From a virus (lineage: Duplodnaviria > Heunggongvirae > Uroviricota > Caudoviricetes), in IMG/VR virus record IMGVR_UViG_3300006217_002764: a stretch of 64,000 bases of DNA; one strand, 5' to 3'. The notes below the pieces were generated by a model that ran no database searches, was not told the DNA's origin, and worked only from the letters and a program-made list of their open reading frames with translations. Positions within the stretch are counted from its first letter, which is position 1; each line of letters begins with the position of its first letter. The position numbers and the translations under genes were made by a program. Positions 35,689 through 54,486 of the stretch are shown here, one piece after another.

Positions 35689-35909
35689 ACCGTGACCCCC
35701 GCAGCCTCGACCCGTTGGCACTCCCCCTGCACCAATATGTCATGCTCGACACCGAAACCACCGGATTGGATCCGAGGACGGGGGCAAGACTGCTGGAGAT
35801 CGGCATCCTACAAGGTGAATCCCCAGCCGTGGTAGAAGACGTCTCCGATGTGTGGTGTGCGGGTGGTGGTGTTCATGGCGTCGCTCCTTGGTGCATGGGT
35901 TTTCGTTGA
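35688..35909 (+). pseudogene. N-terminal fragment of a DEDD (DnaQ-like) 3'-5' exonuclease
   Basis: Exo I motif VMLDTETTGLDPRTGARLLEIGIL, then the ORF ends after 74 aa. The truncation point coincides with a copy of the second conserved promoter/5'UTR motif. Confidence 0.45.
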
Positions 35910-35950
35910 CAAAACTAACTATAGTCCAATCAGTTTATTCAAGCAAGTTT
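35884..35950 (-). promoter_or_regulatory. conserved promoter/5'UTR palindrome motif (type 2), minus-strand copy
   Basis: Minus-strand reading gives ctgattggacTATAGTtagttttgtcaacgaaaaccc...AAGGAG and an ATG opening a 22-codon micro-ORF. Confidence 0.45.
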
Positions 35951-36061: not shown

Positions 36062-36114
36062 TGATTGGGCTATAGTAGTGTTTGTCAACGAAAACACCAC
36101 ACAAGGAGAAGCGC
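36062..36114 (+). promoter_or_regulatory. conserved promoter/5'UTR palindrome motif (type 2)
   Basis: ctgattgggcTATAGTagtGTGTTTgtcaacgAAAACACcacaCAAGGAGaagcgcATG. Confidence 0.5.
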
Positions 36115-36636
36115 ATGAACCCCGCGACCAACCCCAACAACACCGCCGGCACCGAGTTCGCCCGCGTGCATGACTACCTGCACGGCCGCCGCCCCTTAGA
36201 TGCTAGCCTCGCTTCTGTCGCGGCGTCCATGCTGTCCATGCGGCTGGCCGTGCGCGACGCGCTCATTCTCGCGGCCATACGCCCCGACGCGGTGGACGCG
36301 GACACGATGTACGCATTCGCATTCACCCCGCACGAGCCGCACACCGCGACGCTCATGAGCCGCCTGCTCACCAATGCATTCGACACCGGCGACGGCTACG
36401 AGCCACAGGTCATCGAACGGTTCGACGAACTCGTAAAGGCCGCGTCAAACGAACAGGACGCGCCGGCCGCGCAATGCCTCGCCGTGCGCGCCTACCTCGC
36501 ATGGTGGCAGCGCGACAGGGACACCGCGATGCGCTACGCAGTCGAAGCGTTGGACATCAGCGAGGATTGCACGCTCGCGGCCATCGTGCTCGCCGCCTTC
36601 TCCCGCGGTATCCTGCCGCGCGGTCAGGAGCGATGA
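36115..36636 (+). CDS. hypothetical protein
   Basis: ATG 7 nt after the conserved AAGGAG. Confidence 0.5.
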   Translation: MNPATNPNNTAGTEFARVHDYLHGRRPLDASLASVAASMLSMRLAVRDALILAAIRPDAVDADTMYAFAFTPHEPHTATLMSRLLTNAFDTGDGYEPQVIERFDELVKAASNEQDAPAAQCLAVRAYLAWWQRDRDTAMRYAVEALDISEDCTLAAIVLAAFSRGILPRGQER

Positions 36637-36885
36637 CATAGATCGGCCCTGTTTCGGCGGAGTGCGACCCGGCCCCCTCTTGTCGCGAAAGACAGGGAGG
36701 GGCCGGTCGCGTTTCCTGCTGCCTGGGTAGTGTTCGCCAACGGATTCGACTGTAGCGTTGTCGGGATATTCGTTCGGGTTCGCGAAAGATGCCATGTCAC
36801 TTGTGTTCGCGGGGTTCTTCGTTGATATGATTGCTGTGGGCGTGGATTACTGGAGGCGTGAGCGACGCGCCAAGACTTGAGTTAA

Positions 36886-36944
36886 TACTCTGATTGAGCT
36901 ATAGTGGTGTTTGTCAACGAAAACACCGCCCAAGGAGCAACACC
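36886..36944 (+). promoter_or_regulatory. conserved promoter/5'UTR palindrome motif (type 2)
   Basis: ctgattgagcTATAGTggtGTGTTTgtcaacgAAAACACcgccCAAGGAG. Confidence 0.5.
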
Positions 36945-37274
36945 ATGAAGACCCTCACCTACCATGCCGACACCCACACCACCATCATCAACGAATGCGA
37001 CGAAGATAATGCCCTCGCCCACCTTCAGCACGAGGTCGGCGGATACGTCGAACACGTGGACGCCTCCCCGTTGGGTGTCGACGGACTCGACATCTGGATC
37101 AACGACATGGGCGCCGCCGACGGACTGCCGTACGCTTTCAGCCTGCCCCACCCTGGCGGTCGCGTGGACCTGTTCGGCAATGTCGTGTTCACCCGCTGCG
37201 ACGAATATGGCGACACCATCGGCCTGACCGACGGCGACATCAAGGCGCTTGAGGCCAAGCTGCACGCGGCGTAA
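36945..37274 (+). CDS. hypothetical protein
   Basis: 109-aa ORF driven by the type-2 motif. Confidence 0.5.
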   Translation: MKTLTYHADTHTTIINECDEDNALAHLQHEVGGYVEHVDASPLGVDGLDIWINDMGAADGLPYAFSLPHPGGRVDLFGNVVFTRCDEYGDTIGLTDGDIKALEAKLHAA

Positions 37275-37785: not shown

Positions 37786-37869
37786 GGCGCCAGACCTCGC
37801 TGCCGGCGGGTGGCTCCCGGTGGGCTTCGAGCGCTGTATATAATGTGATAGGAAAGGACAACGTGGAGC

Positions 37870-38853
37870 ATGGATCGACTTGACGACGAGAACATCGCGC
37901 TGCTCACGCTGCTCTACTCCTGCAAACGACCCGACAGTTGGAAGAGCCTGACTAACCAGTGTCTGGTCGAGGGAAGCGCGCGGCGGGTGTTGATGAACCG
38001 GCTGGACGCGCAAAGCAACCCGTTGCGCGAATTCGACGAGGTAGAACCCGAAGATTTCGCCTTGTTCCCCGAACCGTTGAGCGACGCGCGCCAGCGAGAA
38101 TACGACGCCGCGGCTAGGGAAGCAGAGCGAGACTACGACGAGTGGATGCGCGCCGAGTTGAGGTTCGTCAGCATCTTCGATTCCGACTATCCGCATCTGC
38201 TGCTTGATAGCGTGGACGCCCCGCCGTTCATGTTCTCCAAAGGCCTGCTTCTGTCTGACGATCGTGGTGTCAGTGTCGTAGGGTCGCGCCATGCCAGTCC
38301 GCAAGGTCTGGAGTTCGCGCAGGAAGTCGCAGCGATGCTCGCGAAGCGGAGTTTGACCGTTGTCGCAGGATTGGCCGAAGGTGTGGATACCGCGGCGCAT
38401 CAGGCTGCATTGGATGCCGGTGCGAGGACCGTCGCGTTCATCGGCACCGGCATCAACCGCGCCTACCCCGCATCCAACCGTGCTTTGCAGGAACGCATAG
38501 CGCATGAAGGATTGGTGTTGTCCCAGTTCAAGCCGGACGCGCCACCGACTCGCCAGACGTTCCCTATGCGCAACGCGGTCATGTCATCCTACGGGTTGGC
38601 GTCCGTCATCTGCGACGCCGGGGAACATTCCGGCACGCGCATCCAAGCAAGGCAGGCCATGCAGCACGGCCGGCCGATCATCTTCCGTCAGCAGGTCGTT
38701 GAGCAGACGCGATGGGCGCATAGCTATCTGGACAAGCCCAACGTGTACGTTGCTCGCACCGTAAACGATGTGGCGCGGTTCATTGACGCCATCTTCCACA
38801 CGGCGCTTGTGCAGGTGGACGACGACTATCTGCGTATACCGTTGGGAGTGTGA
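37870..38853 (+). CDS. dprA: DprA/Smf-like DNA-processing protein (Rossmann/SLOG fold)
   Basis: VVGSRHASPQG...VVAGLAEGVDTAAHQAALDAG...FIGTGINRAYP...FPMRNAVMS...VICDAGEHSGTRIQARQAMQHGRPI matches the DprA core. TATAAT at about 37832. Confidence 0.7.
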   Translation: MDRLDDENIALLTLLYSCKRPDSWKSLTNQCLVEGSARRVLMNRLDAQSNPLREFDEVEPEDFALFPEPLSDARQREYDAAAREAERDYDEWMRAELRFVSIFDSDYPHLLLDSVDAPPFMFSKGLLLSDDRGVSVVGSRHASPQGLEFAQEVAAMLAKRSLTVVAGLAEGVDTAAHQAALDAGARTVAFIGTGINRAYPASNRALQERIAHEGLVLSQFKPDAPPTRQTFPMRNAVMSSYGLASVICDAGEHSGTRIQARQAMQHGRPIIFRQQVVEQTRWAHSYLDKPNVYVARTVNDVARFIDAIFHTALVQVDDDYLRIPLGV

Positions 38854-39668
38854 TGATGGACGGGGCCAGTGAAATCCGCAGACGGCATGAGGCGTCATTG
38901 GCGGCCACGGTGGGCAGTTTCGCACAGAGCGTCGTCTACCGCAGTACCAGAGATCACGTCTGCCCTATCTGTGGCGGGGCAAAGAAAGATGGATACGCGT
39001 GGTGTGTCTCATGTAGCGCCCATCATCATTCGCCATACAAGGCGCAGCTGGCGGATATGGTTCGCATCTTCGCGTATGCGCCGATGGAATGCTCCAGCGA
39101 TGTATCCAATCAGATGACACGGTACATGTACCGATACAAGGAAGACCGGGCCGGTTCCGAACTGGCGCAGGCGGCGGTCACAGAGATTCTGGTCACGGAG
39201 CTGGTGTTGCGTTGGGGCTGCATAAAAGAGGTCTCGGGAGGCGTAGCGCCTACCGCGTGGTCAACCATCCCCTCGACCACGAACAGCCCGAGGGCCGGTA
39301 TCGAGCATCCTTTGCATCGCATTGTCCGTCAGGTTTTGCCCCGTGTCCCGGAGGTCAAGCTGAGGGCGGTAGGCGCGAAAGGCAGGAGCTTGTCGCCTGA
39401 TCTGTTCCAGATGGAGTGCGAGTGTGCGCCTGACACGCTTCGGCATGTGTTGCTGATCGATGACACGTGGGCCACCGGGGGCAATGTGCAGTCGGCCGCG
39501 GTCTCGTTGAAGCGCGCCGGCGCGCAACGGGTCACGGTGTTCTGTGTGGCGCGTGTTGTGAACTATGCGTTTTGCGCCTCGATAGGCGAGGGGGTGGCGG
39601 ACGGTTTCCGTTCGCTGTCTTTCCGCGGCGGTCAGTGGTGCCCGTGGCATTGCATGGTCGAACCGTAA
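38850..39668 (+). CDS. ComF-like phosphoribosyltransferase-fold protein with N-terminal Cys4 zinc finger
   Basis: CPICGG...CVSCS finger, then the PRPP-binding signature HVLLIDDTWATGGNVQSAAVSLKRAGAQRVTVFCVAR. Start overlaps the dprA stop. Confidence 0.6.
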   Translation: MMMDGASEIRRRHEASLAATVGSFAQSVVYRSTRDHVCPICGGAKKDGYAWCVSCSAHHHSPYKAQLADMVRIFAYAPMECSSDVSNQMTRYMYRYKEDRAGSELAQAAVTEILVTELVLRWGCIKEVSGGVAPTAWSTIPSTTNSPRAGIEHPLHRIVRQVLPRVPEVKLRAVGAKGRSLSPDLFQMECECAPDTLRHVLLIDDTWATGGNVQSAAVSLKRAGAQRVTVFCVARVVNYAFCASIGEGVADGFRSLSFRGGQWCPWHCMVEP

Positions 39669-39710
39669 CGTGCTTTGTTGTGGCGTATGTTTTGCGGCGG
39701 CTTGCAATAA

Positions 39711-39768
39711 TAATCTGATTGGGCTATAGTTGTGGTTGTCAACGAAAACACACCACAAGGAGACCATC
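39711..39768 (+). promoter_or_regulatory. conserved promoter/5'UTR palindrome motif (type 2)
   Basis: ctgattgggcTATAGTtgtggttgtcaacgAAAACACaccaCAAGGAGaccatcATG. Confidence 0.5.
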
Positions 39769-40563
39769 ATGGACACCAAGCAAAGCGCCACCCTGTTGTG
39801 CGCCGCTATCGACAAGGACGGCGAACCATACACCACACAGATTGTCGCCTTCATCTCCCCCGGCCTGCCGTACTTCTCGATCATCGGCATGCCCGACACC
39901 TTTTTGGGAGGCGTACGCGAACGCATCCACACCGCCATGGGTGCACAAGGGTTCACATGGCCCGCCACGCGCGTCACGGCCAACATCATGCCCGCCAGCA
40001 GGCACAAGGACGGGCGCGCGCACGAACTCGCCGTCGCCGCCAGCATCCTGTGCGCCAACGGTGTCCTGGACAAAGCGCTGTTCGACCATGCGGCCCTGAT
40101 CGGCCGCCTCGACGACGATGGAGACTGGCATAGCGGCGGGCGCATCCAGCGCGTCGAACACCTGCCCGAACTCGTACGCCATCTCGCTACGCAGGATGTG
40201 CGCACCATCATCATTCCCGCAGCAAACACGGATGTCGAACCCATCGACGGCGTACGGTTCATCCGCGTATCCACGTTGGCGGACCTGACCACCATCAATG
40301 AAGGCACCCGGCCAGTGTGCGACCGTATCGACCGGTTGGTGAATGAGGCGCGCGGCGTCATGGACACCCGGCAGGAAGAACTATTGGACGCGCGCATCCG
40401 GGAACTCGAAGACGCAGTGGACACGCTCAACAGCGTCATCGAACAAGAAGAACGCGACCCCAACGCACGGGAATCGGCCGACATCGCCGAAGCCGAACAA
40501 ACCATCGACGAACTACAGGACCAGCTCGACACACTGAACGACAAGGAAAGGGAAGAATATTGA
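39769..40563 (+). CDS. ComM/YifB N-terminal-domain protein lacking the AAA+ ATPase module
   Basis: ISPGLPYFSIIGMPDTFLGGVRERIHTAMGAQGFTWPATRVTANIMPASRHKDGRAHELAVAASIL aligns to the ComM N-terminal (Lon-like) domain. The C-terminal half is an acidic coiled-coil. No Walker motifs. Confidence 0.55.
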   Translation: MDTKQSATLLCAAIDKDGEPYTTQIVAFISPGLPYFSIIGMPDTFLGGVRERIHTAMGAQGFTWPATRVTANIMPASRHKDGRAHELAVAASILCANGVLDKALFDHAALIGRLDDDGDWHSGGRIQRVEHLPELVRHLATQDVRTIIIPAANTDVEPIDGVRFIRVSTLADLTTINEGTRPVCDRIDRLVNEARGVMDTRQEELLDARIRELEDAVDTLNSVIEQEERDPNARESADIAEAEQTIDELQDQLDTLNDKEREEY

Positions 40564-41027
40564 AAGCACCCGACACCGACCAAGCGACCCGCTTGGCCCG
40601 CGGCCAACGGTTAAAAACCATGCGCACGGCCGCAGGCCTGTCGCAAAGCCAACTCGCCGCATCCATGAGCGCACGCTACAGCGTCAGCCGCTACGAGACC
40701 GGCAGCCGCGACGCGGGCAACATGACCCTGGGAATGGCAAGCAAACTCGCCACCGCCCTAGGCATGGACGTGGACACCTTCACCCAAACCCTATTGGACA
40801 TCCCCGCGTGGCCCACCCTGCCCGCACGCCGCTACGAAACCCTCAAACGCCGCCTACGCCGCCTCGACCACACCCAAGCATGGCTCGCCGAACAGACCGG
40901 ACTCACCCCGTTGCAGGTCAGCCGGTACGCGACCGGCAATACGTACCTGACCCAGTTGAGCCTGGAACGCGCCACCCGGATCGCGCAGGCCCTGCAAGCG
41001 GACCTCGCGGACTTGTCGCAATGGTGA
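40560..41027 (+). CDS. tandem XRE-family HTH transcriptional regulator
   Basis: TTG start overlapping the upstream stop. Two Cro/C1-type HTH units (LKTMRTAAGLSQSQLA and AWLAEQTGLTPLQVSRYATG). Confidence 0.55.
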   Translation: MKAPDTDQATRLARGQRLKTMRTAAGLSQSQLAASMSARYSVSRYETGSRDAGNMTLGMASKLATALGMDVDTFTQTLLDIPAWPTLPARRYETLKRRLRRLDHTQAWLAEQTGLTPLQVSRYATGNTYLTQLSLERATRIAQALQADLADLSQW

Positions 41028-41078
41028 TCGAGGCTGCCGCGACTTGCACAAGTGTATCCCTTGAGATACAATCATGGT

Positions 41079-41390
41079 ATGAGGATACTAACCACCAGAG
41101 AGTACGAGCGCTGGCTCTCGAAACTCAAAGACAAACAAGCGAAAGCGCGAATCATCCTCAAAACAAACCAGATCCAGCAAAGCGGCATCAAGACCGCCGA
41201 CTTCAAACACGTGGGACGGGAGGTTCTGGAACTGCGGTTCCACTTCGGAGCCGGATACCGCGTATATTGCGCCACCAAGCAAGACACCCTGCTCCTGCTG
41301 CTCACAGGCGGAGACAAAAGCTCCCAGCGCAAGGACATCGAAACCGCTCAACGGCTTCTGGATGAAGCCAGAAAGGAACATCAATGGTGA
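41079..41390 (+). CDS. HigB/RelE-superfamily addiction-module killer protein
   Basis: REYERWLSKLKDKQAKARI...VGREVLELRFHFGAGYRVYCATKQDTLLLLLTGGDKSSQ matches the addiction-module killer family. Confidence 0.6.
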   Translation: MRILTTREYERWLSKLKDKQAKARIILKTNQIQQSGIKTADFKHVGREVLELRFHFGAGYRVYCATKQDTLLLLLTGGDKSSQRKDIETAQRLLDEARKEHQW

Positions 41391-41671
41391 ACATCAGCGA
41401 ATGGGACGCCAGCGAATACCTCGACGACGAGGAAACCATCCTCGAATACCTCAACGCCGCCGCCCAGGCAGGCGACCCCCGGCTGCTCCAAACCGCACTT
41501 GGGGACGTCGCCAAAGCACGTGGCATGGCACAGGTCGCCAAAGACGCCGGAGTCGGCCGTGAAAGCCTGTACAAGAGCCTCAGCCCAAGTGGCAACCCAT
41601 CGTTCGGCACGATCATGAAAGTCGTACGTTCTTTGGGCGGGCGCATCACCATCGAACCCGCCGCCGTCTAA
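41384..41671 (+). CDS. HigA-type HTH antidote protein
   Basis: ATGGTGA overlap with the toxin gene. DPRLLQTALGDVAKARGMAQVAKDAGVGRESLYKSLS matches the addiction-module antidote family. Confidence 0.6.
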   Translation: MVNISEWDASEYLDDEETILEYLNAAAQAGDPRLLQTALGDVAKARGMAQVAKDAGVGRESLYKSLSPSGNPSFGTIMKVVRSLGGRITIEPAAV

Positions 41672-42021
41672 CCCGGAAAACTGCGGCTGCCCCGTCCGAA
41701 CATGTGTCGGACGGGGCAGCCGTGGTAGAGAAAATGCCGGCACGACAAAACATGCCGGACGACACAAGTTAGCGTACCACAATCCGGCACCAGCACCGGC
41801 GGGCAGCTGCGCGATCAGCGCCGTATGCAACGGCAGACAGGAACGGATACGGCTGGCGGTTCGACAGTTGAGCACAACAAAAGGGTGTGATAGCCGAAAC
41901 TTCCAGCCATCACACCCTGAAATACCCTTTGGTTGTTTAATGTCAACGAAAACACCCAAGGAGCACAAACCAGTATAACACGTTTAGATACTAACAGCAG
42001 CCCAAATCCCGCCCATGCTGG

Positions 42022-43299
42022 TCACCACTCGTCGCGCAGGCGGTCCAGTTCGTCGAACGGTGCCGCCAGTTGCATCATGTAATCCGCCTGCCTGCTCTCA
42101 TCGGCCTCGTTGAACACGTCCATGCCATGCTCATCCCTCGTCGGAAGGTACACATGGAACCGGTCGAGCATTCCCTCATGTTCCATGTATACGTGCAATG
42201 CGTCAAGGAAATACGGCGAATGCGTCGTGACCAGCACCTTGACATCCATGCGTTGCGCCATCATCACCAGTATCTTCGCATAGCTGAGCTGCCATTTGGG
42301 ATGCAGATGGATTTCCGGCTCGTCCAATATCAGCACCGTGCCCGCCCTGACCACGCCAGTGGATAGCAGCCGGTGCAGCATCAGGAGGGATTTGACACCC
42401 ATGGACGCGTTGTGCAGTTTCAACGCCTCACCATCACGCACATCCAACGTCCGATCGCGGAACTGCCGCCCCTGCATATCTGGGCGCCTGTCCAACGAAA
42501 CTGGTGTGATGTGTTCGATCGCGCGCATCACCTCCAGCACCCTGTCGTCCGGCTGCCACTCCTCCACGATCGCATTGTGGGTGGCGTCCGTGATCGCCCG
42601 CAACGCCACATGACGATCGTCCTCGCGGGGACGGCCGTACAATACATGACCGTACAAGCCGGTCAGGTTCTCGATCAACGCCGGGGTGTCCACCCACACC
42701 GCGTTCGGTCCCGCGAACGAGTCCCCGTCGAAAACATGGTCATCCGGCATGTCCCATGACATCGATGTCACCGCCCCGTCATCGGTATGCAACGCCAGAC
42801 GATGCCCCTTCCCATAGCCATCCACACGGGACAACGCATCCTCGTCGAACAGCGAGGACAAGCGCAGGTCGATCTGGGATGCCGCGTACTCCGTCAACCG
42901 CATGTTCACTGCGGCTTCGATCTGCGCGCGGACGGCATTGACGTCTTGCATCCGGATGCCTTCACTGTGCAAGGCAGTGATGAAATCCTCCACATCCATG
43001 TCTGTCGATTCCATAAACCGATCGGTCTGCTCATGCACCTGAAGGACCGTCTGCCGCCGCTGAGCCCATGTCTCGTCCTCATCCGACGGGACCATCCCGC
43101 TTTGCACGGCCTGTCGTATGGCCCGGCGTGTGGCATCCGTCATGCGCCGATCCAAGTCGAACCGTCCGTCGATCAACGCCAACGCCGCCTTGCCTATAGT
43201 GGACTTGCCCGTGTTGTTCTCACCGGCGATGACCGTGACCCCATCAAGCCTGATATGCGCTTCAGCGATACGACCGATTCCCATGACCTCAAGTTCCAT
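42022..43299 (-). CDS. AAA_21/ABC-like ATPase of the OLD/Gabija/PARIS ATPase class
   Basis: Walker A GENNTGKST, Walker B/D-loop LILDEPEIHLHP, and H-loop VTTHSPYFL. Confidence 0.6.
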   Translation of the reverse strand: MELEVMGIGRIAEAHIRLDGVTVIAGENNTGKSTIGKAALALIDGRFDLDRRMTDATRRAIRQAVQSGMVPSDEDETWAQRRQTVLQVHEQTDRFMESTDMDVEDFITALHSEGIRMQDVNAVRAQIEAAVNMRLTEYAASQIDLRLSSLFDEDALSRVDGYGKGHRLALHTDDGAVTSMSWDMPDDHVFDGDSFAGPNAVWVDTPALIENLTGLYGHVLYGRPREDDRHVALRAITDATHNAIVEEWQPDDRVLEVMRAIEHITPVSLDRRPDMQGRQFRDRTLDVRDGEALKLHNASMGVKSLLMLHRLLSTGVVRAGTVLILDEPEIHLHPKWQLSYAKILVMMAQRMDVKVLVTTHSPYFLDALHVYMEHEGMLDRFHVYLPTRDEHGMDVFNEADESRQADYMMQLAAPFDELDRLRDEW

Positions 43300-43364
43300 G
43301 CCGACCATTCAGCCGTCTCCCGTCGATAACTTCCATGCCGCCAAACGGATTGCCTACAAGCCGT

Positions 43365-44042: not shown

Positions 44043-44115
44043 GTGGGCTGGCGGGATTCGAACCCGCGACCTCCGGATTAAACGTCCGGTGCTCTGTCCT
44101 CTGAGCTACAGCCCC
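44043..44115 (-). tRNA. tRNA-Lys(TTT)-like with unusual G33 (anticodon loop cgTTTaa)
   Basis: Hand-folded. D-stem gctc/gagc, anticodon stem ccgga/tccgg, T-arm gcggg-TTCGAAT-cccgc. 1:72 is G:A. Confidence 0.45.
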
Positions 44116-44256
44116 GCGCATGCCCACCGTCATGATCGGCCGGATATGCGGGATGCGTTCACCATCGCCTTATGGTGTTGCCGAAGATGGCGTGTCTTCG
44201 ACCGTTCCGATCTTTAATAGGATCGTAGACGAGCCTGCACCAAGGCCCGACCTGCG

Positions 44257-44325
44257 TGGGGCGGCCGGATTCGAACCAGCATCCGCTAGCGCTCTGCCAT
44301 TTGAGCTACGCCCCCGGTGGGATGG
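44257..44325 (-). other. truncated tRNA-like element (acceptor, D-arm and T-arm but no anticodon arm)
   Basis: About 64 nt. gggggcg-ta-gctcaaatggcagagc...gctgg-TTCGAAT-ccggc-cgcccc. Confidence 0.35.
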
Positions 44326-44413
44326 CGATCAACCCATCCCCTCCACCTGCACCGATACCGGTGGGGCCCCGTATTGGCGGGGCCATCGGCTCGGGGATAC
44401 CGGTCCGATCGGA

Positions 44414-44484
44414 ACCGGAATCGCACACCGGGATGGAATCGAACCACCGCCTGCGGTTTTGGAGACCGCCGTCCTACCATTGGA
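44414..44484 (-). tRNA. tRNA-Trp(CCA)
   Basis: Hand-folded. Anticodon loop ctCCAaa on stem gcggt/accgc, D-stem gtcc/ggac, T-loop TTCGATT, acceptor with two G-U pairs. Confidence 0.55.
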
Positions 44485-44659
44485 CCACCGGCATATATGG
44501 TGCGCGTCCCTCATGGGCAACGCACCACCGTCCCATGCGTCCGCCTACCATCACGACCTATAGCCACGCCCCTTGATGGGCACAACAACGCCGCTCGGCA
44601 AGCCGACCACACGGGCCCGCATCCAAAACCGTCAACTGGCGTTCCGGTTGGATGCCTCG

Positions 44660-44732
44660 CAGGCGAGGCAGGATTCGAACCTGCAACCCACGGTTCCAAA
44701 GACCGTCGTGCTGCCAATTGCACCACTCGCCT
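44660..44732 (-). tRNA. tRNA-Gln(TTG)
   Basis: Acceptor aggcgag/ctcgcct perfect, D-stem gtgc/gcac, anticodon loop ctTTGga, T-arm gcagg-TTCGAAT-cctgc. Confidence 0.6.
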
Positions 44733-44947
44733 ATACCATGCGGCCTATGCGGCCGCGATGGTCACGGTTTGCGCGCCCAATCACCCGCTGGGCACCCTCC
44801 GCCGGTGCCGGAGGAGACGGACATTGCCCGCCTGTACGCCACCATGCTCTGCTTGGTCTGCCACGACAAGGTGGATGCCGCGGGAAGCCCGTATCATGGA
44901 CCCCTATGCCTGCCCATTGGACGCCGGGCAGGTGGCGTATCCTTTCG

Positions 44948-45020
44948 TGCTTTCGGCGGGATTCGAACCCGCGGCCTTCCGCTCCGGAGGCGGACGCCCT
45001 ATCCACTGGGCCACGAAAGC
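44948..45020 (-). tRNA. tRNA-Arg(CCG)
   Basis: Acceptor gctttcg/cgaaagc perfect, D-arm gccc-agtggata-gggc, anticodon loop ctCCGga, T-arm gcggg-TTCGAAT-cccgc. Confidence 0.65.
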
Positions 45021-45059
45021 GTAGTGTCCAGCGCCGTGCCAACGGCTGTGCACGTGCCT

Positions 45060-45110
45060 GATACGCACCGTGCGTGGAATCGAACCACGATCGGGATCGC
45101 CACCATAACC
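45060..45110 (-). other. tRNA fragment (isolated T-arm hairpin)
   Basis: cgtgg-TTCGATT-ccacg without matching acceptor or D-arm. Confidence 0.3.
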
Positions 45111-45233
45111 CGGTCGCCGCCCCCGCACCCCATACCGGGAGGGGCCGCACCACCAACCACACCGCTTTCATATCAGTACTCACGGCCAGCCGCGTGCGCA
45201 ACCGGTTCACAGCGCTTTCCAGCTCTGGACTCG

Positions 45234-45307
45234 TGCCCCCGGCAGGATTCGAACCTGCGACCGGACGGGTAGAAACCGTCTGCTCTGATCCACTGAGCTA
45301 CAAAGGC
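45234..45307 (-). tRNA. tRNA-Arg(TCT)
   Basis: D-arm gctc-agtggat-cagagc, anticodon loop ttTCTac on stem gacgg/ccgtc, T-arm gcagg-TTCGAAT-cctgc, acceptor with three G-U pairs. Confidence 0.55.
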
Positions 45308-45538
45308 AATCTCTTTCCCCCCGAGCGTATGAGTACGACCACCCGAGGGGAAAGAGCTGGAATGCCGGATTCGTTTTCACCAGCAGCGCCAAGGTACGGT
45401 GCGTGAGCTCCGTTTTAAGCGTACCGTCCGTTAGGTTACTAGCCTGACTGTGAAGCCCGAACGTGCCTTGCCCTCCATACCGTAGGGCGTTTCAGCCAAT
45501 TCCATGGACACCGAGTGATGGCCGTCACCCGGTGCCTG

Positions 45539-45613
45539 TGCTTCCCACGGGATTCGAACCCGTACTGAACTGGGTTTGAGCCAGTCACCTCTACCGGATT
45601 GGGTTAGAGAAGC
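45539..45613 (-). tRNA. tRNA-like with anticodon CAA (Leu codon UUG) but short variable arm
   Basis: Anticodon stem actgg/ccagt perfect with loop ctCAAac. T-arm acggg-TTCGAAT-cccgt. D-stem has one mismatch. Class-I architecture is atypical for Leu. Confidence 0.4.
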
Positions 45614-45712
45614 GTGACCACCTACCCCGCCTGACACGGAGCCGGCCAGCCGTCAGGAAACCAGCCTTCCATAATCGTGGCATCACAGCCGATGATCGAA
45701 CTGCTTCTTTCG

Positions 45713-45785
45713 TGCTCCCCGTGGGACTCGAACCCACAACCCAAGGCTTAAAAGGCCCCTGCTCTACCAATTGAGCTAGAAAAGC
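45713..45785 (-). tRNA. tRNA-Lys(TTT)
   Basis: D-arm gctc-aattggta-gagc, anticodon loop ctTTTaa, T-arm gtggg-TTCGAGT-cccac, acceptor with G-U pairs. Confidence 0.55.
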
Positions 45786-47473: not shown

Positions 47474-47599
47474 AGGCAGGCCGAGTTTTGTGACATGCTC
47501 TCCCCGCTTATAGAAGCGGGGGCTTCCTGCTCAAGAACCCTGACGGATTCAGTGTCAACAGGCTATCCCCGTATGCCCTACGGTTCATGATGTGTTCGG

Positions 47600-48790
47600 T
47601 TATGAGTCGTGCGGATCGCTAACGATACGTTCGGCTTCGTTTCGTATGTTCAGCGCGGCGTTCACATCCCGATCGTGGAGAGTACCGCACTGCGGGCATG
47701 CCCATTCACGTATGGACAGGTCCTTTACCGCACGATTGCGGTATCCGCACGTATGGCATAGTTGGCTGGACGGGTACCATGCGTCCACTCGGATGAATTG
47801 TTTTCCGGCGTGTTCGAGCTTGTAGCGCAACAGGTCGCAGAACATGCCATACCCGTTGTCGAGCGTGCTTTTCGCCAGCCCGCTTTTCGCTGTGCGCCCG
47901 TTCGGTAGATACCTGTTCGGGTCGTGCGGGTCGGTTTTGGGTTTCGGCCTGCGCGTCATACCTTGCAGATTCAAGCTCTCCACGGCGATGGCGTCACAGC
48001 TCGCGACGAGTTTGTTCGCGGTCTTGTGTTGGAAGTCCCGACGACGATTCGCTGTCTTTTCGAACAGGCGGGCGACTCGTATGCGTTGTTTCCTCCAATT
48101 GGCCGAGCCTTTCACCATATGTGCCAGGCGACGTTGCTCGCGCGCCAAGCGTGGTTCCATGTCACGGTAGTATCCGGGGTATTGGGCGTGTTCGCCTTCG
48201 CTGGACACATACAGGCCGTGGGATGCGTAGTCCAGTCCGATGATGTGCGCGGGCGGTGTCGGGTCAGGCATTTGGTTCTCATGCTCGAACAGCACCGTCA
48301 CGATGTACCTGTCGGATCGGGTGTGTTCCACGGTCGCTGATTTGAGTTTCCAGTCGGCGGGAATGTGTTTGTGTTGACGGACGGTGACCCATCCCAGTTT
48401 CGGTAGTCGTAGCCTCCTTGCGTTGTCGGACAGGCGGATGCTGTTGTTGATCGAGTTGGTGGTGTATGCGGCTTTCGAGTGATGCTTCGACTTGTATTTC
48501 GGGAACCCCGCGTGCTTATGGTCGAAGAAGTTCCGGTATGCCTTTTGCAGGGCGAGTTGCGCGTTGCACAACGCCATGCTGTCCACTTCGCGCAGGAACG
48601 GGTATGCGTCCTTGTACATGGCGGGTGTGGGATTGCATGATTCCCACGTGGTCTGATAGTGCGCGATGCGGGTTTCGAGCATGAGGTTGTACACGAACCG
48701 GGTGCAGCCGATGGTGCGGTCGATCATGGCCGCCTGTTCCCGGGTGGGGTATGCGCGGAACCTGACGGCGGTGTGCTGTGTGATGTTCAT
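47600..48790 (-). CDS. tnpB: TnpB (IS605 OrfB, RuvC-like plus zinc finger)
   Basis: N-terminus AVRFRAYPTREQAAMIDRTIGCTRFVYNLML. RuvC motifs IGLDYA, AVESLNLQGM and DVNAALNI. Zinc finger CHTCGY...CPQCG. Confidence 0.8.
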   Translation of the reverse strand: MNITQHTAVRFRAYPTREQAAMIDRTIGCTRFVYNLMLETRIAHYQTTWESCNPTPAMYKDAYPFLREVDSMALCNAQLALQKAYRNFFDHKHAGFPKYKSKHHSKAAYTTNSINNSIRLSDNARRLRLPKLGWVTVRQHKHIPADWKLKSATVEHTRSDRYIVTVLFEHENQMPDPTPPAHIIGLDYASHGLYVSSEGEHAQYPGYYRDMEPRLAREQRRLAHMVKGSANWRKQRIRVARLFEKTANRRRDFQHKTANKLVASCDAIAVESLNLQGMTRRPKPKTDPHDPNRYLPNGRTAKSGLAKSTLDNGYGMFCDLLRYKLEHAGKQFIRVDAWYPSSQLCHTCGYRNRAVKDLSIREWACPQCGTLHDRDVNAALNIRNEAERIVSDPHDS

Positions 48791-49218
48791 ACGTCGCGTT
48801 CCTTGCCTTGGTTTTCGATGTAGCGGCGTATCACTTCGATGGGTGCGCCTCCCGTGGTGAGCAGGCAGAAGCTGCGGCTCCAGAAGTATTCGCGCCACAG
48901 TTTCTTGCGTATTTGCGGATACTCCTGTTTAAGCAGGCGTGAGCTGGCGCTTTTGTACGCGTTGATGAACTTCGACAACTCGCTCTTGGGTTGGGCGCGG
49001 AACAGGACGTGCACGTGGTCGAGGTCATGGTTCCATTCCTCGACGGTTATCCCGTACTTGGGTGCGATGTACTCGAAGATTTCCCGCGCGCGAGCGGAGA
49101 TTTCGTCGTCGAACACTTTGCGCCGGTATTTCGTGACGAGCACGAGATGATAATGCATGAGGAACACCGAATGATGATTCGACTCCAGTTTCACTACTAT
49201 CACCTCGCTTTCAAGCAT
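48787..49218 (-). CDS. tnpA: IS200-type Y1 HUH transposase
   Basis: HUH motifs HYHLVLV and HVHVLF, plus the catalytic Tyr region. ATGA overlap with tnpB. Confidence 0.8.
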   Translation of the reverse strand: MLESEVIVVKLESNHHSVFLMHYHLVLVTKYRRKVFDDEISARAREIFEYIAPKYGITVEEWNHDLDHVHVLFRAQPKSELSKFINAYKSASSRLLKQEYPQIRKKLWREYFWSRSFCLLTTGGAPIEVIRRYIENQGKERDV

Positions 49219-49463
49219 GTACGACTGATAATGATTCTACCATATGTCGCACGCCGATTCATCCCCCGCCTACGCTCCCGCTAAGAGGCGGGGGAATCCT
49301 CGGCGCCACCGTTGAAGGATTTCGCACCATTCCATCCGGTCAACGTGCAATACCGTCCACTGGGCGACACCACTGCCGAATGGCAGGACGCGACCGAGGA
49401 CATGGCAATGAGATGGTGACTGACCAATAACCGACCACAAACACTACCAGAAAGAATCCGGCC

Positions 49464-50192
49464 ATGAAAACATGGGAAGCCCCGATGGAAGACGAGAACG
49501 GAACCATTCTCAACCGGTACATCATCACTGAATGCGAGAGCGTGGACGATGTCCTCAGCCTTGACGCAACCGTGGAGGGACAGCGGTTGCAACGTGCGTT
49601 GACGGCACCTCATATCAGTGACATCGATGAATGGTTATGGGATTTGGAAGACAATCAGGATCCCGACGCCCTCCGCCCGGATGAGGTCGTGTTCCTCGAC
49701 GACGAGCATACGTGGTACCACGTCAAGGGATCCGGCCTATGCCTCGCGAACGGTTGCTCAGCGGAATATTGGCTGCCATACATGTTCACGGACGAGAATC
49801 GTTGGGAAACGTTCTACCTCGACCGTGACCACAGTAAACTGTTTCATTCCGGGATGCCGAGACTGTGGACAATGAACCCGTCCGCATTCATGCCCTGCAA
49901 CGATTGGCAGGAAGGATACACCGTCGCCAATCCAGAAAGACCCGCTTCCGTCTACGGTCAGCAAGACCCGTTTATCCAAGGACGCACCCCTGATGACGCG
50001 TTAATCTTCCATCAGGGCGATTCCGCCTCACCTGAAGATTGTTGTCGGGACGATTCTGTGTCAGTGTCCCTCGCGCAATACCAGAAAATATTGCGCGAGT
50101 ACGCGCCGTTCGAAGCGGTGGAGCTACGCTACCACCCCAAGAACAACACGGATGCCGGATGGACGGACATGGAACCCGCCAAGGAGGAATGA
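49464..50192 (+). CDS. hypothetical protein (paralog of 50958..51607)
   Basis: Shared blocks VDDVLSLDATVEG, VVFLDDEHTWYHVKGSGLC and SLAQYQKILREYAPF. Confidence 0.5.
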   Translation: MKTWEAPMEDENGTILNRYIITECESVDDVLSLDATVEGQRLQRALTAPHISDIDEWLWDLEDNQDPDALRPDEVVFLDDEHTWYHVKGSGLCLANGCSAEYWLPYMFTDENRWETFYLDRDHSKLFHSGMPRLWTMNPSAFMPCNDWQEGYTVANPERPASVYGQQDPFIQGRTPDDALIFHQGDSASPEDCCRDDSVSVSLAQYQKILREYAPFEAVELRYHPKNNTDAGWTDMEPAKEE

Positions 50193-50665
50193 TGAGCGCA
50201 AGAAACAAGCCAGACAACCTTGAGCAACCCGTCGTTTACAAGTGTGAGGATTGCAGCAAGCCCACGCACACCTGTGCCTGCGGGCACTGCCACAACCACA
50301 TATGGCGGTGCCTACGATGTGGTAGGAAACTCTGCGCGGAATGCGATTTCACCTTCGACGGCCTTTGCGGGGAATGCTACCGCAAGCCGGAACAAGAACT
50401 CACCTACCGGCAGCTCGCCTTCGATTCCTACCATGCCAACCACCGACTGCTCAGAAACCTCATAGAGATCCGGGAACGACACGGCATCAGCCAGGCGGAA
50501 CTCGCCGAACGCATGAACATACCCGTGCAAACCATCATCGGCATCGAGAACGGCTCACTGGAATTCCTGCCATACCTGACCGATTACGCGTTGGAAGTCG
50601 GCGCGCTCGTCGAATACAAGATCACACCATACGACATCACCATAACGGAAGGAGAACGGGAATGA
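50191..50665 (+). CDS. Cys-rich zinc-ribbon plus XRE-type HTH regulator
   Basis: CEDCS...CACGHC...CLRCGRKLCAEC...CGEC, then the HTH RERHGISQAELAERMNIPVQTIIGIENG. Confidence 0.55.
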
Positions 50666-51607: not shown

Positions 51608-51620
51608 AAGGAAAATCATC

Positions 51621-53087: not shown

Positions 53088-53232
53088 TACCCTTCCCCAT
53101 TGAGCTGATTGGGGGCATGCCTTTTCGGTATGCCCCCAATCTTATTTGGCATGTTACTCAACCGATGCTGAGATGCACCGTTGGTCCATGCAGATAACGG
53201 TCTTATTGCCATTCCGGCATGCCAGACTGTCG

Positions 53233-54469: not shown

Positions 54470-54486
54470 TATTCGCCTTTCCCTCT

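What the first reader, a model, noticed from the sequence alone, without database searches (positions are those of the whole stretch)
37870..40563. Co-regulated DprA-like, ComF-like PRTase and headless ComM (N-terminal domain only) module
Three consecutive genes are homologs of DprA (full Rossmann core), ComF (zinc finger plus PRPP-binding fold, start overlapping the dprA stop) and the N-terminal Lon-like domain of the ComM/YifB helicase with no ATPase. They sit under promoters carrying the same unusual palindromic 5'UTR element. Their chromosomal homologs act together on incoming ssDNA in natural transformation. A compact element-borne trio with a truncated ComM is not a described system. It could process transferred ssDNA in the recipient (RecA loading). 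It could instead be a nucleotide-centric conflict module, since SLOG/DprA-fold and PRTase-fold proteins recur in defense systems. The ComM-N protein could also act as a dominant-negative decoy of the host helicase.
Basis: partly seen in the sequence, partly recalled or inferred. Interest (0 to 1): 0.75.

Follow-up and report, generated by a model that had tools for sequence, protein, structure and literature searches.

The report
Plasmid ShosTA-like pair plus motorless ComM
The three genes are real, but they are not one module: the first two look like a divergent copy of a known toxin-antitoxin phage-defence pair (ShosTA) carried on a Bifidobacterium conjugative plasmid, and the third is a separate, uncharacterised plasmid gene made from the DNA-ring domain of the ComM helicase without its motor.

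Summary
All three ORFs exist as described: a DprA-like protein (37870-38853), a Zn-ribbon PRTase that overlaps its stop (38850/38856-39668), and a ComM N-terminal Lon-like domain without an ATPase (true start 39769, to 40563). The claim of a co-regulated trio fails. The shared promoter/operator element precedes only the third gene. A terminator-like hairpin and a separate promoter lie between genes 2 and 3.

In 65 of 80 actinobacterial genome loci, two Gordonia phages, a Bifidobacterium-type prophage and mycobacterial plasmids, the DprA-like and PRTase genes occur as an abutting pair. The ComM-N gene is never with them. The trio occurs only in one family of Bifidobacterium plasmid-like elements, relatives of pMP7017. 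There the PRTase has been deleted twice independently while the DprA-like gene stayed intact.

The DprA-like protein best matches PADLOC ShosA (1.5e-59). 15 of 17 PRTase family members match PADLOC's short ShosT model. The pair is therefore most likely a divergent ShosTA-type toxin-antitoxin/abortive-infection module, which is a known kind.

The ComM-N gene is translationally coupled to a double-HTH regulator. It encodes a non-catalytic Lon-like domain followed by an acidic coiled coil. Its function is unknown; a decoy of host ComM remains possible. Interest is moderate.

The parts
37839..37858 (+). Candidate own promoter -10 (TATAAT, 37839-37844) and RBS (GGAAAGGA, 37851-37858) of the DprA-like gene. 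The shared operator-like element is absent here.
   Evidence: Read directly from the sequence. The consensus scan did not call it because there is no -35. The pattern search finds no operator copy here.
37870..38853 (+). DprA-like protein of 327 aa: helical N-terminal region of about 93 aa plus a Rossmann core. Putative ShosA-type antitoxin.
   Evidence: Pfam DNA_processg_A 9.4e-54. PADLOC ShosA PDLC03961 1.5e-59 and PsyrA 1.1e-30. TIGR00732 dprA scores 154 bits, below its 191 cutoff. PDB matches: DprA 3uqz 2e-32, ShosA 9vzo 2.8e-21.
38856..39668 (+). Zn-ribbon plus class-I PRTase of 270 aa (alternative starts GTG 38850, ATG 38853, overlapping the upstream stop). Putative short-ShosT-type toxin with ComF-like architecture.
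39663..39693 (+). Weak terminator-like hairpin with a T-rich tail, directly after the PRTase stop.
   Evidence: Consensus scan.
39702..39749 (+). Sigma-70-type promoter (TTGCAA, 17 nt, TATAGT) with the plasmid-family operator-like element (39724-39749) overlapping the -10 and the transcript start of the ComM-N gene.
   Evidence: Conserved in related elements.
39769..40563 (+). ComM N-terminal Lon-like domain (residues 1 to about 180) plus an acidic three-helix tail (181-264). No AAA+ ATPase and no catalytic Ser.
   Evidence: Pfam ChlI 1.4e-17. 38-44% identity to the Bifidobacterium ComM N-terminus. AF2 pLDDT 89. Foldseek top hit is the ComM Lon domain. Tail pI 4.1.
40560..41027 (+). Double-HTH XRE-family regulator of 155 aa. 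Its TTG start overlaps the ComM-N stop (ATATTGA), so the two form one operon.
   Evidence: Two HTH_3/HTH_31/HTH_26 stretches. Overlap read from the sequence. Always follows the ComM-N gene in relatives.
35899..35924 (-). Copy of the operator-like element, divergent, before a minus-strand gene that is truncated in this window.
36070..36095 (+). Copy of the operator-like element before the 172-aa gene (ATG 36116 to 36636).
36899..36924 (+). Copy of the operator-like element with its promoter (36877-36905), before the DUF3846 gene (36946-37274).

Best explanation
The finding contains two independent units, both carried on a Bifidobacterium conjugative plasmid-type element related to pMP7017.

Unit 1 (37870-39668) is a translationally coupled two-gene operon. 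It encodes a DprA-like protein followed by a Zn-ribbon PRTase. I read it as a divergent member of the ShosTA/PsyrTA class of type IV toxin-antitoxin and abortive-infection defence systems.
- Inferred by analogy with E. coli ShosTA: the PRTase binds PRPP through its conserved DD loop and poisons nucleotide metabolism and replication.
- Inferred: the DprA-like dimer binds ssDNA and RecA and offsets that damage without touching the toxin.
- Inferred: when phage infection or plasmid loss depletes or titrates the DprA-like protein, the PRTase kills or arrests the cell. That would give phage defence and/or plasmid addiction.
- Shown here: the homologies, the conserved catalytic and Zn motifs, the pairing across Actinomycetota, and the asymmetry of gene loss.
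- Not shown: toxicity, neutralisation and phage defence.

Unit 2 (39702-41027) is a separate operon belonging to this plasmid family. It encodes a motor-less, non-proteolytic ComM Lon-like ring domain with an acidic coiled-coil tail, translationally coupled to a double-HTH regulator. It is driven by one of four promoters that share an operator-like site. The regulator probably binds that site, so these would be co-regulated early or establishment genes (inferred). The biochemical role of the ComM-N protein is unknown.
For: Separate transcription units:
- A terminator-like hairpin and a new promoter lie between the PRTase and ComM-N genes. The operator element precedes only ComM-N.

The pair is the conserved unit:
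- A DprA-like ORF lies directly upstream on the same strand in 65 of 80 genome loci across Actinomycetota. None of them has ComM-N or the HTH gene.
- The 15 loci without a DprA-like gene form a single clade.
- The pair without ComM-N occurs in a 73%-identical relative with a phage-like context (L010) and in a 41%-identical relative (L002).

Mobile and defence contexts:
- Gordonia phages Vasanti gp30/29 and Bosnia gp41/40 carry the pair between the tail genes and the integrase or immunity repressor.
- A Bifidobacterium-type prophage has the order integrase, pair, RNase T, cI-like repressor.
- The pair lies next to a KAP NTPase in another contig.
- A Mycolicibacterium plasmid carries it beside a methyltransferase and a helicase.
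- Single neighbours match DrmC, AbiLi, JetD, PD-T4-6 and mad6.

Family assignment:
- ShosA PDLC03961 scores 1.5e-59 on the window protein and 1e-54 to 1e-64 on the partner proteins of relatives.
- 15 of 17 PRTase family members hit short ShosT PDLC03962 (best 8e-10), and 15 of 17 hit PsyrT.
- D204-D205 are invariant. The equivalent D331A/D332A mutation abolishes ShosT toxicity (PMC11961720).
- The protein is 327 aa with an N-terminal helical region, like the 328-aa ShosA with its SAM domain (PMC12961424).

Asymmetry of loss:
- Two independent deletions removed the PRTase catalytic domain: 683 bp in the commonest variant, and an in-frame fusion to the ComM-N tail. The DprA-like gene stayed intact at 327 aa in both.
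- The one apparent DprA-like disruption is a run of N in the assembly.

Element identity:
- The VirB4-like ATPase is 49% identical to that of pMP7017-type megaplasmids. There is a tRNA array as in pMP7017 (PMC10832533).
- The downstream slot varies between an AAA_21 ATPase and an XhoI/Eco57I restriction-modification system.

Unit 2:
- See for the ComM-N domain, and for the stop/start overlap.
Against: - No experiment bears on this family.
- The window PRTase itself hits no ShosT model at E<=0.01.
- It lacks the HAD-like pyrophosphatase domain of the characterised ShosT and carries a ComF-type Zn ribbon instead.
- Its best structural and NCBIfam matches are to ComF. ComFC is known to work with DprA on ssDNA in natural transformation.
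- The ShosA HMM may not discriminate against true DprA. The Pfam DprA score is nearly as high.
- Most chromosomal neighbourhoods are metabolic genes, not defence islands.
- One locus has the PRTase without a DprA-like gene (L014).
- In two bee-gut Bifidobacterium species the pair sits between recA-recX and hpf-secA, a housekeeping-looking position.
- The loss asymmetry rests on only two events within a single element family.
Confidence: 0.6

Rival explanations
1. The three genes form one element-borne module that processes transferred ssDNA in the recipient during conjugation, through RecA loading and protection of the incoming strand.
For: - All three have homologues in the natural-transformation pathway.
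- ComF is the best structural match for gene 2.
- The genes lie among small genes typical of conjugative-element early regions, such as DUF3846, on a conjugative plasmid type.
- The DprA-like gene is kept in every variant of the element.
Against: - The trio is confined to one element family. The pair occurs without ComM-N in phages that inject dsDNA, in chromosomes and on other plasmids.
- The PRTase, and in one lineage also the ComM-N Lon domain, is deleted in circulating variants.
- Transcription signals are separate.
- Published Bifidobacterium megaplasmids have no homologue of the PRTase, and none appears among the listed ComM-N hits.
Confidence: 0.08
2. The DprA-like/PRTase pair is not a toxin-antitoxin. 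It is a cooperative DNA-handling duo modelled on DprA-ComFC, with ssDNA binding by both proteins. Mobile elements would use it for recombination, repair or establishment, and the DprA-like protein would be the essential partner.
For: - ComF-like architecture and the best fold match.
- TIGR00201 comF is the best NCBIfam hit, at 6.7e-8.
- The pair lies next to recA-recX in B. apis and B. mizhiense.
- PRTases of invasive elements share features with ComFC-like PRTases (PMC5512222).
- Neighbourhoods are mostly not defence-related.
- The DprA-like gene is retained when the PRTase is lost.
Against: - Family members hit ShosT and PsyrT toxin models.
- TIGR00201 and TIGR00732 scores are far below their cutoffs.
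- No comFA, comEC or other competence genes are adjacent in the neighbourhoods scanned.
- The position between integrase and repressor in temperate phages is typical of lysogen-expressed defence genes (the generalisation is from my own knowledge of actinobacteriophages).
- The distribution is patchy: 290 relatives found in a motif-seeded scan of 185,579 species genomes.
Confidence: 0.15
3. The ComM-N protein is a dominant-negative decoy or cap for the host ComM helicase, or for another Lon-ring helicase such as RadA. It would form or poison hexameric rings on DNA, so that the plasmid blocks branch migration, recombination or transformation in its host. This concerns gene 3 only and is compatible with the best explanation.
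For: - It is 38-44% identical to the Bifidobacterium ComM N-terminus through the whole Lon domain and linker.
- The ComM Lon domain drives oligomerisation and contacts DNA in the pore (PMC11612176).
- The equivalents of the pore residues K46 and K64 (R50, R68) and of the interface residue S26 (S30) are invariant.
- The motor is replaced by an acidic coiled coil.
- A genuine ATPase-less ChlI-domain protein sits among anti-restriction-type genes on a Streptomyces plasmid.
- Mobile elements are known to interfere with transformation (PMC11472951).
Against: - There is no interaction or phenotype data.
- One lineage of the element deleted the Lon domain and kept only the tail fused to the PRTase Zn ribbon, so the domain is dispensable for persistence.
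- The family is tiny, 17 clusters.
- The phage 'example' turned out to be a truncated comM gene.
Confidence: 0.2
4. The ComM-N protein is a partner of the double-HTH regulator, acting as co-repressor, anti-repressor or sensor. It would control the four operator-bearing promoters of the plasmid.
For: - Stop/start overlap with the HTH gene in all relatives.
- The operon's own promoter carries the operator-like site, which suggests autoregulation.
- In the fusion variant the coiled-coil tail and the HTH coupling are what is preserved.
Against: I know of no precedent for a Lon-like ComM domain acting in transcription control. Binding of the HTH protein to the operator is untested.
Confidence: 0.15
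5. Ordinary metabolism: gene 1 is a LOG/lysine-decarboxylase-like enzyme and gene 2 is a purine or pyrimidine salvage PRTase.
For: Weak sub-threshold hits to LDcluster4/TIGR00725 over the first ~57 residues of the Rossmann core (134-190), and to UPRTase, APRT and PRPP synthetase in the PRPP loop.
Against: - DprA models score 150-200 bits over the whole core.
- All salvage-enzyme hits are far below their cutoffs and cover only the PRPP loop.
- The Zn ribbon and the fixed pairing with a DprA-like gene are not features of salvage enzymes.
Confidence: 0.01

Closest known systems
ShosTA (E. coli APEC O1; also called DprA-PPRT/Rst_DprA-PPRT), a type IV toxin-antitoxin phage-defence system
   Same: - It is a two-gene unit of a DprA-like protein (about 328 aa, N-terminal helical/SAM region plus Rossmann core, no winged-helix domain) and a PRTase-domain protein with an essential DD PRPP loop.
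- It is carried on mobile elements.
   Different: - Characterised ShosT is 424 aa with an N-terminal HAD-like pyrophosphatase domain (PMC11961720). The window protein is 270 aa with an N-terminal four-Cys ribbon.
- There is no significant direct sequence match: ShosT in the PDB scores E 0.22, over the PRPP loop only.
- The host phylum is Actinomycetota, not Proteobacteria.
PADLOC short ShosTA subtype (ShosA PDLC03961 + ShosT PDLC03962, 237 model positions)
   Same: - It gives the best HMM match for the DprA-like protein (1.5e-59).
- 15 of 17 members of the PRTase family hit PDLC03962. For the B. apis member the match spans nearly the whole model.
- The toxin size class is similar.
   Different: - The window's own PRTase falls below detection, so PADLOC's HMMs detect ShosA but no ShosT here.
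- I found no published experiment on this subtype in the held library.
PsyrTA / RqlHI
   Same: DprA-like antitoxin: PsyrA scores 1.1e-30. The toxin ends in a PRTase domain: PsyrT positions 645-684 hit at 0.0088 for the window protein, and 15 of 17 family members hit PsyrT.
   Different: PsyrT is a protein of about 689 aa with a RecQ-like helicase fused in front of the PRTase. No helicase is present here.
ComFC and DprA of natural transformation
   Same: - The DprA Rossmann core has its usual motifs.
- ComFC and DprA act together on incoming ssDNA (own knowledge; PMC5512222 discusses ComFC-like PRTases).
   Different: - Scores are far below the curated cutoffs: comF 32.7 against 233.6, dprA 154 against 191.
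- The PPi-loop region differs: IPSTxxSPR...EHPL instead of the ComF motif (the ComF motif is from memory).
- No competence genes are nearby.
- The distribution is patchy and linked to mobile elements.
ComM/YifB branch-migration helicase (L. pneumophila structure 8rxd/8rxs)
   Same: The N-terminal Lon-like domain matches with rmsd 2.3-2.7 A. Ring-interface and pore residues are conserved. The Lon catalytic Ser is absent, as it is in ComM.
   Different: The AAA+ ATPase, zinc-finger insert and Mg-chelatase C-terminal domain are all missing. An 84-residue acidic coiled coil takes their place. The gene is coupled to an HTH regulator on a plasmid.
Bifidobacterium conjugative megaplasmid pMP7017 and B. 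longum relatives
   Same: The VirB4-like ATPase is 49% identical. There is a tRNA gene array. The GC content is about 58-60% (PMC10832533).
   Different: There is no DNA-level similarity in the module region. Those plasmids have no homologue of the PRTase, and none appears among the listed ComM-N hits.

Membership tests
ShosTA | DprA-like antitoxin component (ShosA: SAM-like N-terminal domain plus DprA Rossmann core, about 330 aa) | tested here: met
   PADLOC ShosA PDLC03961 1.5e-59 and PDLC02997 3.8e-21. PDB ShosA 9vzo 2.8e-21. 327 aa with the core at 94-281. Caveat: the HMM may also score true DprA.
ShosTA | Toxin with a PRTase domain and an intact PRPP-binding DD loop | tested here: met
   [not shown]
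ShosTA | Toxin recognised by a ShosT profile | tested here: inconclusive
   The window protein has no ShosT hit at E<=1. However, 15 of 17 aligned family members hit short ShosT PDLC03962 (best 8.3e-10) and 5 of 17 hit long ShosT PDLC03012.
ShosTA | N-terminal HAD-like pyrophosphatase domain of the characterised ShosT | tested here: not met
   The N-terminus is a four-Cys ribbon (C38, C41, C52, C55) and the whole protein is 270 aa. A separate HAD hydrolase gene precedes the pair only in five Pseudonocardiaceae loci.
ShosTA | Two adjacent co-oriented genes that are inherited together | tested here: met
   Stop/start overlap in the window. A DprA-like gene lies directly upstream in 65 of 80 genome loci, in phages and on plasmids.
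ShosTA | Toxicity of T, neutralisation by A, and protection from phage | not testable with these tools
   Only indirect evidence: two PRTase deletions with the DprA-like gene kept, and no genuine reverse case in this element family. L014 has a PRTase without a DprA-like gene.
ComF/ComFC | Zn finger plus PRTase architecture | tested here: met
   Best fold match is ComF 7p0h.
ComF/ComFC | Score above the curated family cutoff (TIGR00201) | tested here: not met
   32.7 bits against a cutoff of 233.55, and only the C-terminal 76 residues align. NCBI names a Bifidobacterium family member 'hypothetical protein'.
ComF/ComFC | Association with competence genes (comFA, comE) | tested here: not met
   No competence-gene family appears among the 25 most frequent Pfam families of the 102 neighbour proteins, nor among the neighbours scanned individually. 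Only two loci lie beside hpf-secA.
DprA (bona fide recombination mediator) | Equivalog-level score and the usual C-terminal winged-helix domain | tested here: not met
   TIGR00732 scores 154.1 against a cutoff of 191.15. NF008007 scores 128.8 against 495. No C-terminal domain hit in Pfam.
ComM/YifB | N-terminal Lon-like (ChlI) domain | tested here: met
ComM/YifB | AAA+ Mg-chelatase ATPase and C-terminal domain | tested here: not met
   No PF01078 hit. TIGR00368 scores 60 bits against a cutoff of 362.4, and only model positions 16-167 of 499 are matched. Residues 181-264 are three helices.
Lon protease | Catalytic Ser-Lys dyad | tested here: not met
   The position of the Lon Ser (PKDGPSAG) reads HKDGRAHE. 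The Lon motif itself is from my own knowledge.

The most novel reading that the evidence does not exclude
Motor-less ComM proteins, consisting of the Lon-like DNA-ring domain plus an acidic coiled coil, are a plasmid-encoded class of inhibitors or hijackers of the host's ComM/RadA-type branch-migration machinery. They would be expressed with the element's early, operator-controlled genes to stop the host from recombining or transforming DNA. Independently derived ATPase-less ChlI-domain proteins on Streptomyces plasmids would be a second instance.
Probability: 0.12. Interest if true: 0.75.

Novelty: new member of a known kind. Interest (0 to 1): 0.4.

Why it matters
If the pair behaves like ShosTA, three things follow.
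- ShosTA-type defence or addiction extends into Actinomycetota: Bifidobacterium plasmids and prophages, actinobacteriophages of Gordonia, and mycobacterial plasmids.
- The toxin can be a minimal ComF-like Zn-ribbon PRTase without the pyrophosphatase domain. That constrains models of how ShosT kills.
- PADLOC's ShosT models miss the toxin in this window, so a profile built from this family would improve defence-system annotation.

The link between ComF-like PRTases and DprA-like partners also bears on the long-unclear biochemical role of ComFC.

Separately, the ComM-N gene gives a concrete, testable candidate for a plasmid factor that acts on the host recombination helicase.

Tried and rejected
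- **DNA-level searches.** Searching the 6-kb region against PLSDB plasmids and INPHARED phages found nothing.
- **PHROGs.** No family for the PRTase or the ComM-N protein.
- **The palindrome as an RNA hairpin.** Rejected, because its energies are no better than those of shuffled sequences. No Rfam family matches there.
- **Apparent frameshift of the DprA-like gene in the 99%-identical MAG contig L001.** This would have argued against a toxin-antitoxin. It is a run of N in the assembly.
- **Neighbourhood enrichment.** Among 102 flanking proteins of 61 genome pairs, most are metabolic and only scattered ones are defence proteins. This decides nothing either way.
- **HAD hydrolase upstream of the pair as a split ShosT N-domain.** It is seen only in five related Pseudonocardiaceae, so it may be plain synteny.
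- **Is the family the housekeeping Bifidobacterium ComF?** The recA-recX-pair-hpf-secA arrangement in B. apis suggested this. I rejected it because the family has only about 25 clusters and NCBI labels a member 'hypothetical protein'.
- **Evtepia phage 'ChlI-only' protein.** It is a truncated ComM that still has half of the ATPase domain, so I dropped it as an example.
- **Literature on plasmid leading regions.** It mentions none of these genes.

Full report
**1. What is in the sequence**

The window has about 58-60% GC. Between 37.8 and 41.0 kb it carries four co-oriented ORFs.

- ORF 37870-38853 (327 aa) has a complete DprA Rossmann core. Pfam DNA_processg_A scores 9.4e-54 over residues 94-281, with only a weak SLOG/LDcluster4 overlap. 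The best solved relatives are S. pneumoniae DprA (2e-32) and E. coli ShosA (2.8e-21).
- ORF 38850-39668 starts inside or against the upstream stop (GTGATGATGG). Its homologues begin at the ATG at 38856, giving 270 aa.
  - It has an invariant CxxC...CxxC ribbon (C38, C41, C52, C55) and a PRPP loop, VLLIDDTW(A/T)TGGN.
  - All curated PRTase models, including comF TIGR00201 (32.7 bits against a 233.6 cutoff), touch only that loop region.
- The third ORF really starts at ATG 39769, 8 nt after AAGGAG, and encodes 264 aa.
  - Residues 1 to about 180 are the Lon-like N-terminal domain of ComM/YifB. Pfam ChlI scores 1.4e-17. TIGR00368 covers only model positions 16-167 of 499. The ComM structure 8rxd matches at 1.1e-7, or 9.9e-26 with a profile.
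  - The model (pLDDT 89) superposes on the L. pneumophila ComM Lon domain at 2.3-2.7 A.
  - There is no ATPase. Residues 181-264 form three helices with pI 4.1.
- The stop of the third ORF overlaps the TTG start of a 155-aa protein with two XRE-type HTH domains (40560-41027).

**2. The shared promoter claim**

- The motif CTATAGTnGTGnTTGTCAACGAAAAC occurs four times in the window, against none in 100 shuffles. The copies are at 35899(-), 36070(+), 36899(+) and 39724(+).
- Each copy lies in a sigma-70-like promoter, TTGnnn-17-TATAGT.
- The copies precede a truncated minus-strand gene, a 172-aa gene, the DUF3846 gene and the ComM-N gene. They do not precede the DprA-like gene, whose upstream region has a different TATAAT (37839-37844).
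- After the PRTase stop there is a weak terminator-like hairpin (39663-39683), followed by the ComM-N promoter.
- As RNA, the palindrome GTGTTT-N8-AAACAC folds no better than shuffled sequence. No Rfam family matches. In relatives the core TTGTCAACGAAA is conserved while the arms drift.
- I read it as a DNA operator, plausibly for the adjacent double-HTH protein. That is inference.
- Read-through from the 36899 promoter across DUF3846 and a 130-aa gene into the DprA-like gene cannot be excluded.

**3. What is conserved with what**

- The PRTase has only 13 close clusters among 5.8 billion proteins. A profile search of 1.84 billion representatives finds 284 clusters at E<=1e-30.
- Contexts of close relatives show the order DprA-like, PRTase, ComM-N, HTH only in syntenic copies of the same element (L001, L003-L009).
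- A 73%-identical PRTase in a phage-like context with Prim-Pol, HNH and VRR-NUC genes (L010), and a 41%-identical one (L002), have the DprA-like gene but no ComM-N.
- A motif-seeded scan of 185,579 species genomes gave 290 relatives. The best were Bifidobacterium species (36-44% identity) and the rest other Actinomycetota.
- Local phmmer on the 80 fetched loci found a DprA-like ORF abutting upstream on the same strand in 65. It found the ComM-N and HTH proteins in none. The 15 loci without a DprA-like gene form one clade on an NJ tree.
- The same pair is annotated in several mobile elements:
  - temperate Gordonia phages Vasanti (gp30/29) and Bosnia (gp41/40), between tail genes and the integrase or immunity repressor;
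  - a Mycolicibacterium plasmid, beside a methyltransferase and a helicase;
  - a Bifidobacterium-type prophage, in the order integrase, pair, RNase T, cI-like repressor, SSB;
  - a contig where it lies beside a KAP NTPase.
- The conserved, mobile unit is therefore the two-gene pair.

**4. Variation within the element family**

- The ComM-N protein's commonest cluster (132 members, listed in 62 collection blocks) comes from elements with a 683-bp internal deletion of the PRTase gene. A 54-aa remnant is left, and the DprA-like gene is intact.
- A second lineage has an in-frame deletion. It fuses the first 71 residues of the PRTase to the last ~100 residues of the ComM-N protein, again with an intact 327-aa DprA-like gene and the coupled HTH gene.
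- The only apparent DprA-like disruption, in the 99%-identical MAG contig, is a run of N.
- Thus the PRTase was lost twice and the DprA-like gene never. This is what a toxin and its antitoxin would show, but with only two events the argument is weak.
- Just downstream, the slot after a RelE/HigA-type pair alternates between an AAA_21 ATPase (in this window), an XhoI/Eco57I restriction-modification system, and an SMC-like ATPase. The pair therefore sits in the element's accessory, conflict-gene zone.

**5. Family assignment of the pair**

- The DprA-like protein's best profile anywhere is PADLOC ShosA PDLC03961 (1.5e-59, model positions 53-287 of 303), followed by PsyrA (1.1e-30). It fails the dprA equivalog cutoff (154 against 191 bits).
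- The window PRTase itself hits only PsyrT weakly (0.0088). However, 15 of 17 aligned family members hit PADLOC's short ShosT model PDLC03962 (237 positions; best 8.3e-10). 15 of 17 hit PsyrT, and 5 of 17 hit the long ShosT model. The DprA-like partners of the four relatives tested (two Gordonia phages, a mycobacterial plasmid, B. apis) hit ShosA at 1e-54 to 1e-64.
- The literature describes this class as follows.
  - DprA-like antitoxin plus PRTase toxin defines ShosTA and PsyrTA/RqlHI, and ShosTA protects against T7 and lambda (PMC9122126; bioRxiv 10.1101/2022.05.11.491447).
  - ShosT is a HAD-like pyrophosphatase plus a PRTase. Its DD loop is essential for toxicity.
  - ShosA is a SAM plus Rossmann dimer. 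It binds ssDNA and RecA and neutralises ShosT without contacting it (PMC11961720, PMC12961424).
- The window pair shares the DprA-like component, the PRTase with its DD loop, the two-gene layout and carriage on mobile elements. It differs in that the toxin is short and has a ComF-type Zn ribbon.
- I therefore file it as a divergent member of the ShosTA kind, short-ShosT subtype, with moderate confidence (0.6).
- The main rival is a cooperative DprA/ComFC-like DNA-handling pair. It keeps some weight for three reasons. ComF is the best fold and NCBIfam match. Most chromosomal neighbours are metabolic. In two bee-gut Bifidobacterium species the pair lies between recA-recX and hpf-secA.
- It is not the genus's housekeeping ComF. 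The family has about 25 clusters, and NCBI calls a member 'hypothetical protein'.

**6. The ComM-N gene**

- Its family is tiny, 17 clusters. The nearest outgroups are full-length Bifidobacterium ComM proteins, at 38-44% identity through the Lon domain and linker.
- The Lon catalytic serine position reads Ala (HKDGRAHE), as expected for the non-proteolytic ComM/RadA type.
- The equivalents of ComM pore residues K46 and K64 (R50, R68) and of interface residue S26 (S30) are invariant. In ComM this domain is required for hexamer formation and DNA translocation (PMC11612176).
- A ring-forming, DNA-contacting domain with its motor replaced by an acidic coiled coil is a reasonable candidate for a decoy or cap of the host helicase. 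Because it is co-expressed with a regulator from an operator-controlled promoter, a role in the element's own regulation is equally possible. Nothing here decides between these.
- A genuine ATPase-less ChlI-domain protein occurs on Streptomyces plasmid pSITFR-21c, among methyltransferase, PAPS-reductase-like and ParB-N genes.
- A phage 'example' proved to be a truncated comM.

**7. The element**

- The window matches a MAG contig at 99% identity (GCA_948813275.1).
- It encodes a VirB4-like ATPase 49% identical to those of the B. breve megaplasmid pMP7017 and B. longum megaplasmids. It also encodes a lysozyme/CHAP hydrolase and an FtsK-like ATPase.
- It carries an array of 7-8 tRNA genes. A tRNA array is also a hallmark of pMP7017 (PMC10832533).
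- Published megaplasmids have no homologue of the PRTase, and none appears among the listed ComM-N hits.

**8. Verdict**

- Genes 1 and 2 are a new, divergent member of a known defence/toxin-antitoxin kind. This subtype has no experiments that I could find, and PADLOC's HMMs detect only its ShosA half in this window.
- Gene 3 belongs to a different operon and is functionally open.
- Nothing supports a three-gene ssDNA-processing machine.

Noticed in passing
window 44043-45785 (-): An array of 7 tRNA genes (Lys-ttt twice, Trp, Gln, Arg-ccg, Arg-tct, Leu-caa) spaced about 280 bp apart. Rfam finds an eighth weak tRNA at 44256-44315. It resembles the tRNA array of the Bifidobacterium megaplasmid pMP7017.
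   Followed up: partly
window 41052-41671 (+): A RelE/ParE-family toxin (HI1419 type, TIGR02683 1.6e-28) with an overlapping HI1420-type antidote (1.6e-34), directly after the HTH gene. In some related elements the toxin is shortened or missing while the antidote stays.
   Followed up: partly
window 42022-43308 (-): An AAA_21/AAA_15 ATPase whose best PADLOC hit is PD-T4-4_A (1.6e-23). In related elements the same slot holds an XhoI-type endonuclease with an Eco57I-type methylase, or an SMC-like ATPase. It appears to be a variable defence-cargo hotspot.
   Followed up: partly
L015-L020 (e.g. L016 7775-7939) and L112-L114: There are two independent natural deletions of the PRTase gene. One is a 683-bp internal deletion in the commonest variant. 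The other is an in-frame fusion protein (P0013, 171 aa) that joins the PRTase Zn ribbon to the ComM-N coiled-coil tail at a shared VRI sequence.
   Followed up: yes
window 35816-35876 (-) and 47493-55143: Compared with the 99%-identical contig L001, the window lacks about 1.3 kb. As a result the 117-aa minus-strand gene behind the 35899 operator copy is cut to 22 codons. The window also has an extra 7.6-kb segment containing an IS605-type TnpB gene (47600-48898) and a flotillin/SPFH gene (51621-53087).
   Followed up: partly
window 25072-26805 (-): A 577-aa protein that combines a P-loop kinase (AAA_33/Zeta-toxin-like) with a T4-type RNA ligase domain. It looks like an RNA-repair (Pnkp/Rnl-like) enzyme, on the same element as the tRNA array.
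   Followed up: no
window 21049-21120 (-); 12157-13728 (-): An Rfam Transposase-2 RNA (57.9 bits), and a second TnpB/Cas12f-like ORF of 523 aa. IS605-family elements are also inserted at different places in related copies of the plasmid.
   Followed up: no
L027 2488-11251 and L028 (B. apis, B. mizhiense): In these bee-gut Bifidobacterium chromosomes the DprA-like/PRTase pair lies between recA-recX and hpf-secA. That places it beside the gene for RecA, the protein that ShosA is reported to bind.
   Followed up: partly
L051, L061, L063, L087, L097 (about 4300-5000, +): In five Pseudonocardiaceae genomes a HAD-family hydrolase gene of about 215 aa directly precedes the DprA-like/PRTase pair on the same strand. 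It could be a split counterpart of the HAD-like N-domain of ShosT, or it could be plain synteny.
   Followed up: partly
L104 3632-4582 (Streptomyces plasmid pSITFR-21c): A 316-aa ATPase-less ChlI-domain protein. It sits among a C5 methyltransferase, a phage DAM-like/GNAT protein, a PAPS-reductase-family protein and a ParB-N protein. It may be an independent case of a motor-less ComM-like domain on a plasmid.
   Followed up: partly
window 41940-41953 (+): A one-mismatch copy of the operator core (ATGTCAACGAAAAC) lies between the antidote gene and the AAA_21 ATPase gene. No promoter context is evident.
   Followed up: no
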